DNA of 64,000 nt from the human T2T-CHM13v2.0 reference genome, Homo sapiens, in NCBI RefSeq assembly GCF_009914755.1, contig NC_060932.1, one strand, 5' to 3'. The translations under genes were made by a program, and so were the position numbers. The notes beneath the pieces were generated by a model, which did not search any database, was not told the DNA's origin, and was given only the letters and a program-made list of their open reading frames with translations. Below, piece by piece: positions 17,175-18,665 of the stretch. Position 1 is the stretch's first letter, and every line of letters begins with the position of its first letter.

Positions 17175-17489
<315 letters not shown>

Positions 17490-17736
17490 TCATATGTTAC
17501 AACATTTATTCAGTTGCCCAATCTAGCAATTTGTGAGTTTATTTATTTTTCTCTTATGTCTGATCCATCTCCAAGTGCTATTGATTCCATCTCTTAAGCA
17601 TTTCTTCATTTGTCCCTTTCTCTCCATCCCTATTCCCCTAAATATCCCTATTTCAGGTTCTGGCTTCCCTTCACATTCAATCTTTTCTATCCTCAAACCC
17701 AAGCTGCCAGAATCCTATGTCGAACATGAAAATCTA

Positions 17737-17891
17737 GGCTGGGCATGATAGTGTGCACCTGTGGTGGCAGCTACTTGGGTGGCTGAGGTGAGAGGATTGC
17801 TTGAGCCCGGGAATTTGAGGCTGCAGTGAGCTATGGTTGTCCACTGCACTCCAGCTTGGGTGACAGAGCAAGACCCTGTGTCTTAAAAAAA
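17737..17891 (+). mobile_element. FRAM (free right Alu monomer)
   Basis: Single right-arm monomer with A tail. Confidence 0.8.
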
Positions 17892-18080
17892 TACGCAGAT
17901 CTAACCTTAGCACTCCCTTACTTTCAACCCATCAATGACTCCTTTCTGGCCAGGGCAGCATTTTCTACCCGGTGATCACTGGGATGTTAGATGTACCACA
18001 GGAAAATTCTGCATGAAACTTTGGATAAACACATTTAGACAGAGTTCTTTACCTTTTGGACTTCTTAACACATGAATGTA

Positions 18081-18165
18081 CATTTTGGCTGCTTTTTTTT
18101 TTTCTGCTCCTCATGGAGCAGAGCTACCCCACAGGCAGTGTGCCCAGAGTAGCCCCATTTTGGCT
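18081..18165 (-). mobile_element. Tiny (~52 nt + A11) retro-insertion with TSD; double-hairpin RNA resembling a MER41-type LTR R region
   Basis: CATTTTGGCT at 18081-18090 and 18156-18165; minus strand reads GGGCTACTCTGGGCACACTGCCTGTGGGGTAGCTCTGCTCCATGAGGAGCAG-A11. Confidence 0.82.
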
Positions 18166-18439
18166 CTTTAAGAGAGGATACCAGATGCAGCATTTCTCAA
18201 ACCCAACTGAACATGCAGAATTCCTTTTTCATGGGGCACTGTGAGGAATTAGCATTTCAATGGAAACTCTTTGAGAAACATTACCTTGTGTATATTGCAA
18301 AGAGTTCCAATTAATGGGGATTCACTCAACTCTATCTCCCCAATGTAAGAATTAGAGTGTCTACTTTGATGTTGCCTACTGTACTTTTCTTGGCTAGATT
18401 GTCTACTTTTTCCTTATTAAGCAGCCTGGACAAGTGCAA

Positions 18440-18665
18440 AACAATATTAGAGGTTTAAGAATCAAAGAGGTTAGCCTTAGAATTTCAACCATTTACTAAA
18501 TGTAAGAACTTGGGTAAGTTTCTTCAGTTTCTTTGAGTCTCTTACTTTATCATTAAATTCAGTGTAAAACCTGCCTCATATGGTTACTTGAGTAAATGAT
18601 ACACCATATAGAAAGTGAAAAGCTGAGTGACTGGCATATAGAAAGTGCTCAATAAATGTCATTTC
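18440..18665 (+). mobile_element. MIR
   Basis: AACTTGGGTAAGTTTCTT...GAAAGTGCTCAATAAATG. Confidence 0.55.

What the first reader, a model, noticed from the sequence alone, without database searches (positions are those of the whole stretch)
18081..18165. 52-nt double-hairpin retrocopy resembling a MER41-type LTR R region
Seen: TSD CATTTTGGCT, A11 tail, no AATAAA. The RNA folds as GGGCUACUC-UGGGCA-CAC-UGCCUG-UGGGGUAGCUC (long bulged stem with G-U pairs), then CUGCUCC-AUGA-GGAGCAG (perfect 7 bp), ending at the tail. From memory the body matches GGCTACTCTGGGCACACTGCCTATGGGGTAGCCCTGCTC..GGAGCAG of MER41-like LTRs, but it lacks LTR ends and the short integrase TSD, so L1 machinery rather than retroviral integration is implied.
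Basis: partly seen in the sequence, partly recalled or inferred. Interest (0 to 1): 0.78.

Follow-up and report, generated by a model that had tools for sequence, protein, structure and literature searches.

The report
Fossil abortive retroviral transcripts in humans
This 50-base piece of an old retroviral promoter, with an A-tail and a duplicated insertion site, is one of at least 80 same-sized copies in the human genome that likely record short, prematurely stopped viral transcripts pasted back into DNA by the LINE-1 jumping gene tens of millions of years ago.

Summary
Real, and part of a family. The element (minus strand, 18155→18093) is a 50-nt piece of an ERV1 LTR R region with two extra 5′ G, an A11 tail, a 14–15-bp TSD and a TT|AAAG site. 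The parent is MER66B, not MER41: a sister copy in BRCA1 is a published 51-nt RepeatMasker 'MER66B' row.

I inspected 80 stand-alone copies and 48 LTR-embedded ones; the rough estimate is at least 160 stand-alone. They begin at the same G, 31–32 nt below the LTR TATA box, mostly with one extra G absent from LTRs (likely the cap). In 69 of 80 the tail starts within 4 nt of hairpin 2, about 30 nt before the LTR's AATAAA. Poly(A)-signal products are nearly absent (1 of 117). An extra T often precedes the tail. The copies are as diverged as the LTRs, with no master subgroup.

Best reading: L1 retrocopies of capped, prematurely ended, TAR-like short LTR transcripts, tailed without a poly(A) signal. 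Closest known: tarsier TINEs, described as using CPSF cleavage and post-dating their LTR. My literature searches found no description; Repbase and Dfam notes and primate empty sites could not be checked. No function is implied for this copy.

The parts
18156..18169 (-). 5′ copy of the target-site duplication (14 bp; perfect core 18156-18165)
   Evidence: extension read by eye
18166..18171 (-). L1-endonuclease-type site TT|AAAG at the start of the TSD
   Evidence: family enrichment 39 of 80 vs 13.5% of control windows
18154..18155 (-). two G that are in neither the LTR nor the 3′ TSD copy; at least one likely copied from the m7G cap
18104..18153 (-). 50-nt body = +1 to +50 of the MER66B LTR R region
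18123..18153 (-). hairpin 1, bulged stem starting at the inferred start site (TAR-like position)
   Evidence: fold; palindromic R-U5 units elsewhere fold back at this stem
18104..18121 (-). hairpin 2, 7-bp stem with 4-nt loop; the tail starts at its base
18093..18103 (-). A11 tail, not present in the LTR (last 3 A may belong to the TSD)
   Evidence: 72 of 80 stand-alone vs 0 of 48 LTR copies are A-rich here
18081..18095 (-). 3′ copy of the target-site duplication (15 bp, one extra base; perfect core 18081-18090)

Best explanation
This is a 50-nt piece of the MER66B retroviral LTR with an A-tail and a target-site duplication, one of at least 80 same-bounded human copies, likely made when LINE-1 copied short capped transcripts that likely stopped early just past a double hairpin and were tailed without a poly(A) signal. 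Steps: (1) Shown: the copies start at one G 31-32 nt below the LTR TATA box; inferred: this is the Pol II start site. (2) Shown: an extra G at -1 that LTRs lack; inferred: cap copied by reverse transcription. (3) Shown: the tail starts 0-4 nt after hairpin 2, about 30 nt before AATAAA; inferred: promoter-proximal pausing and termination at about +50 to +70, with trimming back to the stem. (4) Shown: excess T before the A-run; inferred, weaker: untemplated U, then A. (5) Shown: TSD and TT|AAAA-type sites; inferred: L1 target-primed reverse transcription. (6) Shown: divergence equal to the LTRs; inferred: made while the provirus family was young, roughly 40-60 Myr ago. The window copy has no promoter and is most likely inert.
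For: Same ends: TATAAA lies 31-32 nt above the first G in 28 of 48 LTRs; the first AAA is within 4 nt of hairpin 2 in 69 of 80 stand-alone copies. Extra G: 17 of 22 stand-alone vs 0 of 40 LTR among exact-20-mer carriers; 12 of 19 copies chosen only by their 3′ end, against 15% background, p 3e-6; a single G between TSD and body in 10 of 25 high-scoring TSDs. Untemplated G as a cap mark is stated in PMC4859970 (passages). L1 marks: TSD score >=12 in 25 of 60 vs 0.9% of mismatched flank pairs; TT|AAAA (<=1 mismatch) in 39 of 80 vs 13.5%. No poly(A) signal: 0 of 80 bodies hold A[AT]TAAA. With the same 16-nt anchor, 44 loci are A-tailed and 53 continue as LTR, whereas 1 of 117 exact poly(A)-signal sites has an A-run within 30 nt and that one retains U3. 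TT at the junction: 22 of 61 T-first copies vs 1 of 43 Alu-linker controls; 17 of 61 vs 1 of 48 LTRs. No master: identity at positions 21-34 is 0.763 copy-copy, 0.761 copy-LTR, 0.760 LTR-LTR. Two palindromic R-U5 units start at the same G and fold back at hairpin 1. Precedents: HIV pausing at 62 nt (PMC5691660) and premature termination with Drosha at HERVs (PMC6223193), both read as passages.
Against: No RNA data: start site, cap, pausing and uridylation are all inferred from DNA. DNA cannot separate early termination from trimming of a longer RNA back to the same stem; 2 of 80 copies clearly run 14-16 nt further. TSDs are weak in many copies: 35 of 60 score below 12, and only 2 of 19 reach 12 (8 of 19 reach 10) in the 3′-selected set. 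The first 60 copies were found with a G-first query, so their G share is inflated. T is also common deeper in old tails (3-25% per position), and the Alu control differs in age and run length. One site (position 27) differs between copies and LTRs at p 0.049, 1 of 14 tests. Empty sites were not checked. No covariation evidence shows that the hairpins were selected.
Confidence: 0.62

Rival explanations
1. Same L1 retrocopying, but the template was a decay intermediate: a longer LTR transcript (to the poly(A) signal or into the provirus) chewed back 3′-5′ until the exonuclease stalled at hairpin 2, then re-tailed.
For: Ends cluster 0-4 nt after a stable 7-bp stem; a few run 14-16 nt further; the poly(A) signal was used at least once (L163).
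Against: The precursor should itself be a good L1 template, yet start-site-to-poly(A)-signal copies were not found (0; 1 of 117, and that one has U3). A possible third stem-loop around AATAAA (2-3 of 5 LTRs folded) gives no cluster of ends.
Confidence: 0.22
2. One or a few master loci with a genomic A-tract (or TT plus A-tract) right after hairpin 2 produced the family, SINE-like or by internal priming.
For: The recurrent TT junction; position-27 allele somewhat enriched in copies (22 of 79 vs 6 of 48).
Against: Junctions vary in the way the LTR sequence predicts (none, T, TACC, +14, +16). TT copies are no more alike than others (0.771 vs 0.763) and carry both alleles of the 21-22 site. No such LTR among 48 inspected or 53 listed. 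No tRNA-type B box is visible by eye.
Confidence: 0.09
3. Ordinary TINE-type products, cleaved and polyadenylated by CPSF at a non-canonical signal inside the 50 nt.
For: TINE1-3 show that LTR TATA-driven short RNAs are L1 templates (PMC5059674).
Against: 0 of 80 bodies hold A[AT]TAAA. The expected signal position lies in the G+C-rich arm of hairpin 1. The real AATAAA starts 31 nt after the end in 10 of 15 LTRs where it was found.
Confidence: 0.05
4. DNA-level remnant: an LTR fragment left by deletion, or captured viral cDNA.
For: RepeatMasker labels such pieces simply as LTR fragments; viral-cDNA-type R-U5 palindromes do exist in this family.
Against: Flanks are not LTR; a non-LTR A-tail, long TSD, L1-type site and extra G recur across dozens of loci.
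Confidence: 0.02

Closest known systems
TINE1-3, tarsier interspersed elements (PMC5059674; PMC5322556)
   Same: Short multicopy retrosequences from an LTR's TATA-driven Pol II transcript, A-tailed, mobilised by L1; TINE3 comes from a MER83B-like ERV1 LTR and was missing from the RepeatMasker library.
   Different: TINEs are described as tarsier-specific, cleaved at the LTR's CPSF signal, and active long after the parent LTR went silent. This family is human, MER66B-derived, ends about 30 nt before the signal, and is as old as its LTR. TINE3's sequence is in a figure I could not read, so some overlap is not excluded.
MER66B solo LTR (ERV1, MER4 group; PMC5753468)
   Same: Source of the 50 nt; RepeatMasker gives the BRCA1 sister copy this name (PMC11839443 Table 1).
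   Different: No U3, no U5, no TG..CA ends, long TSD and A-tail.
HIV-1 TAR short abortive transcripts (PMC5691660, PMC6223193)
   Same: Capped RNA from the LTR start site, stem-loop at +1, length about 50-60 nt.
   Different: No sequence relationship tested or claimed; two short hairpins; no trans-activator known; seen here only as genomic retrocopies.
L1 retrocopies of pre-miRNA hairpins (mir-373, mir-498; PMC7692494) and m7G-capped pre-miRNAs (PMC6009592)
   Same: A-tail joined directly to a hairpin with no poly(A) signal; capped pre-miRNAs get their ends from Pol II start and termination.
   Different: Stems here (13 and 7 bp) are too short for a pre-miRNA; no Rfam match; the source is a retroviral LTR.

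Membership tests
L1-mediated retrocopy | TSD of about 7-20 bp | tested here: met
   10 bp perfect, 14-15 with one indel; family 25 of 60 vs 0.9% control
L1-mediated retrocopy | TT|AAAA-type endonuclease site | tested here: met
   TT|AAAG here; 39 of 80 vs 13.5%
L1-mediated retrocopy | 3′ A-tail absent from the source DNA | tested here: met
   72 of 80 vs 0 of 48 LTRs
L1-mediated retrocopy | empty site in an outgroup genome | not testable with these tools
   no primate relatives held; indirect: the BRCA1 copy interrupts an L1MB3
TINE | starts at the LTR's TATA-directed start site | tested here: met
   31-32 nt below TATAAA in 28 of 48 LTRs; start site itself inferred
TINE | 3′ end made at the LTR's CPSF/poly(A) signal | tested here: not met
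   0 of 80 bodies with A[AT]TAAA; 1 of 117 signal sites tailed
TINE | active long after the parent LTR was silenced | tested here: not met
   copy-copy identity 0.763 vs LTR-LTR 0.760 over 14 positions; short stretch, modest power
TINE | tarsier-specific; homology to TINE1-3 sequences | not testable with these tools
   this family is in human; TINE sequences are in an image
MER66B-derived sequence | RepeatMasker/Dfam best match is MER66B | tested here: met
   indirect: sister copy L143 coincides in length, order and spacing with the published 51-nt MER66B row; Dfam not run, so MER66A/C/D as co-sources are not excluded
MER41 | best match is a MER41 LTR | tested here: not met
   the published label of the sister copy is MER66B; no direct alignment to MER41 was possible
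Solo LTR or LTR remnant | U3-R-U5, TG..CA ends, 4-5-bp TSD, LTR-homologous flanks | tested here: not met
SINE (Pol III, master-driven) | internal A/B-box promoter and master-derived subfamilies | tested here: not met
   no master signal; no B box by eye; no 7SL/tRNA/5S Rfam match on the body
Capped pre-miRNA | single long Dicer-type hairpin; mature miRNA | tested here: not met
   two short stems; no Rfam miRNA match; small-RNA data not available

The most novel reading that the evidence does not exclude
The human genome holds a few hundred L1-captured fossils of capped, TAR-like abortive transcripts from an ancient primate ERV1 promoter, preserving the start nucleotide, cap, stop point and U/A tailing. 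They would show that promoter-proximal termination at an R-region hairpin restricted a simple retrovirus in the primate germline 40-60 Myr ago, and that such fossils can be read for other ERV families.
Probability: 0.5. Interest if true: 0.76.

Novelty: new variant of a known kind. Interest (0 to 1): 0.63.

Why it matters
It exposes an apparently unnamed human retrosequence family hidden as 'MER66B fragments'; by one matched count its copies are nearly as many as the LTRs with that exact motif (44 vs 53), which would distort solo-LTR counts and dating. If the 3′ ends are termination products, this is a base-resolution fossil record of how an extinct retroviral promoter was started, stopped and tailed in the germline, a step otherwise studied mainly in HIV. 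It also shows L1 taking RNAs of about 50 nt with non-canonical tails, and offers presence/absence markers for early primate phylogeny. The single copy in this window is probably without function.

Tried and rejected
Rfam on the window and on six sister loci gave only Alu-derived and chance hits, none meaningful on the body. A phage blastn gave one chance hit, E 0.7.

MER83B as parent (suggested by TINE3): the papers read gave no usable anchor; dropped once the MER66B anchor matched. PMC4021974 held only names.

Deletion remnant: rejected. Poly(A)-signal-cleaved copies: 0 with an 8-A run, 1 of 117 with 5 A. Master element: not supported.

Pair retention in the stems is biased by the search patterns and was not used as evidence of selection. 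The 4-bp TSDs of the parent LTRs were within one mismatch in only 3 of 11, so I do not lean on them. The capture-recapture estimate (about 160 stand-alone, about 860 LTR) rests on overlaps of 6 and 2 and incomplete samples: a rough lower bound.

Rows handled by hand: L034 moved from stand-alone to palindromic; copies with indels dropped in the exact-20-mer comparison; the 68 rows collapsed to 44 loci by hand. No earlier findings were available, and the genome could only be sampled by pattern, so there is no full census.

Full report
**1. Observation.** Read on the minus strand, the locus runs: TT|AAAG site, TSD (18169-18156), GG, a 50-nt body (18153-18104), A11, TSD (18095-18081). The 10-bp core repeat is exact; extending it by eye gives 14 and 15 bp with one indel and explains the 2 nt between tail and core. 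The RNA folds as two hairpins, z -3.87. Rfam has nothing for the body. The annotation supplied with the finding places it between CHCHD7 and SDR16C5, with no gene in the window.

**2. A family.** A genome search with the element gave 227 candidates, 40 scored; of 30 loci fetched, 25 were stand-alone A-tailed copies and 5 lay inside an LTR. A 21-mer with up to 2 mismatches has 360 matches, control 0. After removing duplicates I classified 81 loci: 60 stand-alone, 19 in LTRs, 2 palindromic (one relabelled by hand). I added 29 T-first loci, all 29 in LTRs, the BRCA1 copy, and 19 copies chosen only by their 3′ end: 80 stand-alone (including this one) and 48 LTR copies in all. Capture-recapture suggests about 160 stand-alone copies as a rough lower bound.

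**3. The parent.** The LTR is 464-508 bp in 11 copies measured, with about 80% pairwise identity and 1,578 first-look candidates. I recalled the name MER66B and tested it. PMC11839443 Table 1 lists a 51-nt MER66B inside L1MB3 in BRCA1 (passages). The matching T2T stretch holds a 51-nt member of this family followed by TT and an A-run, with the neighbouring Alus at the listed spacings. MER66 belongs to the ERV1 MER4 group (PMC5753468, passages). LTR queries hit the window only over the body.

**4. 5′ end.** TATAAA starts 31-32 nt above the first G in 28 of 48 LTRs (30 have the hexamer), the usual spacing for a Pol II start (established knowledge). R begins at the start site and often carries a stem-loop (PMC2664473, passages). 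At -1, exact-20-mer carriers show G in 17 of 22 stand-alone copies and 0 of 40 LTRs; 3′-selected copies show G in 12 of 19 (p 3e-6). In several perfect TSDs exactly one G separates TSD and body. Untemplated G in L1 and SVA insertions is read as a copied cap (PMC4859970, passages). Two palindromic R-U5 units start at the same G and fold back on hairpin 1, independent support for both the start site and the stem.

**5. 3′ end.** The first AAA lies within 4 nt of hairpin 2 in 69 of 80 copies; 2 of 80 clearly follow the LTR for 14-16 nt more. The LTR's AATAAA starts 31 nt downstream in 10 of 15 LTRs where it was found, and no body contains one. Genome-wide, a 16-nt hairpin-2 anchor is followed by an A-run at 44 loci and by LTR sequence at 53. 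Of 117 exact poly(A)-signal sites only 1 has an A-run within 30 nt, and it retains U3. TT at the junction occurs in 22 of 61 T-first copies against 1 of 43 Alu-linker controls and 1 of 48 LTRs. Untemplated U before A is my reading; A-to-T decay in old tails weakens it.

**6. Insertion and age.** TSD scores reach 12 in 25 of 60 copies against 0.9% of mismatched pairs, but in only 2 of 19 of the more diverged 3′-selected set. TT|AAAA-like sites occur in 39 of 80 against 13.5%. Copies are as diverged from each other as LTRs are (0.763, 0.761, 0.760 over 14 positions), and TT copies form no subgroup, so many young near-identical LTRs rather than a late master are the likely source. About 80% pairwise LTR identity, 83% between the arms of L090 and nested Alus fit 40-60 Myr (inference from a recalled neutral rate), the period of the retrocopy and solo-LTR burst described in PMC5322556 (passages).

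**7. Mechanism.** Shown: shared ends, extra G, tail, TSD, L1-type site, absence of a poly(A) signal, equal age. Inferred: Pol II starts at +1, pauses after the two hairpins and terminates; the capped RNA is trimmed to the stem, gains U and A, and is copied by L1 ORF2p. Pausing at 50-100 nt with premature termination is general (PMC6009592, passages); HIV pauses at 62 nt (PMC5691660, passage); a review reports Microprocessor-linked termination at TAR and Drosha binding at HERVs (PMC6223193, passage). I put L1 retrocopy of a start-site RNA at about 0.95, a 3′ end independent of the poly(A) signal at about 0.85, and termination rather than decay of a longer RNA at about 0.62 overall.

**8. Comparison and novelty.** It works like a TINE but fails two TINE features: CPSF cleavage and activity after LTR silencing (PMC5059674, passages and supplement file 1 part 1). 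Supplementary Figure 3 is an image, so TINE3's sequence and true 3′ end could not be compared, and this may bear on novelty. Hairpin retrocopies with unexplained tails are known for mir-373 and mir-498 (PMC7692494, section 13). Searches for TINE/tarsier, MER83B (15), LTR R-region retrocopies (19, 0 papers), MER66B (32), MER66 or retropseudogenes (42), LTR-derived SINE-like elements (51), MER66 (64) and TAR-like termination in ERVs (67) showed no description of this family in their listings. Most listed papers were not read, and Repbase Reports, Dfam notes and subscription journals are not covered.

**9. Verdict.** A real L1 retrocopy and a member of an apparently undescribed human family of MER66B start-site retrosequences: a new variant of a known kind. 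Interest 0.63. The value lies in the family as a fossil record of abortive retroviral transcription, not in this copy.

Noticed in passing
L034 (G000:C15, about 67,844,350) and L090 (G000:C1, about 65,952,570): Palindromic R-U5 units of the same LTR with no U3: an inverted arm joined at hairpin 1 to a forward arm starting at +1, U5-type ends on both sides, 4-bp flanks ACTG/ACTG and CAGC/CAAC; arms of L090 are 83% identical. They look like self-primed minus-strand strong-stop DNA inserted by integrase (mechanism recalled from HIV work). A junction search found only these two exact hits among 11 rows.
   Followed up: partly
L143:1071-1121 (BRCA1 intron, G000:C17:43,946,970-43,947,020): A sister copy interrupts an L1MB3 in BRCA1 and is published as a plain 51-nt MER66B row.
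   Followed up: yes
hairpin-2 loop across copies; window 18111-18114: Four copies not chosen by this motif carry a GNRA-type GCAA loop closed by C-G; the two commonest variants (29 and 28 copies) look like CpG decay. The window copy has AUGA.
   Followed up: partly
L163 (G000:C9, about 128,862,380): An LTR piece with U3 and TATA that ends 12 nt after the start of AATAAA's downstream run in an A-rich tail: likely a retrocopy of a read-through RNA cleaved at the LTR's poly(A) signal.
   Followed up: partly
L029, L088, L009, L111 tails; L005: Alus sit directly in or after the tails (AluS-, AluY- and AluJ-like by recalled diagnostics), and L005 sits at the start of an old Alu right arm; usable for relative dating.
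   Followed up: partly
L017/L018 (chr16 duplicates): The MER66B LTR is interrupted by an SVA-like end upstream and an Alu downstream (names recalled).
   Followed up: no
G000:C7:102,689,596, 102,729,114 and 102,733,849; G000:C17:46.47, 47.10 and 47.96 Mb: Clusters of near-identical LTR hits, probably segmental duplications; L050 shows no obvious primer-binding site after its LTR.
   Followed up: no
window 17738-17891, 17480-17950, 18180-18290, 18430-18660: An Alu monomer (Rfam SRP hit) inside what looks like an L2 remnant, a MER5-like piece and a MIR-like piece flank the insertion (names other than the SRP hit are recalled).
   Followed up: no
G000:C8:56,304,023: Another stand-alone copy (L153) lies about 320 kb from the window copy.
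   Followed up: partly
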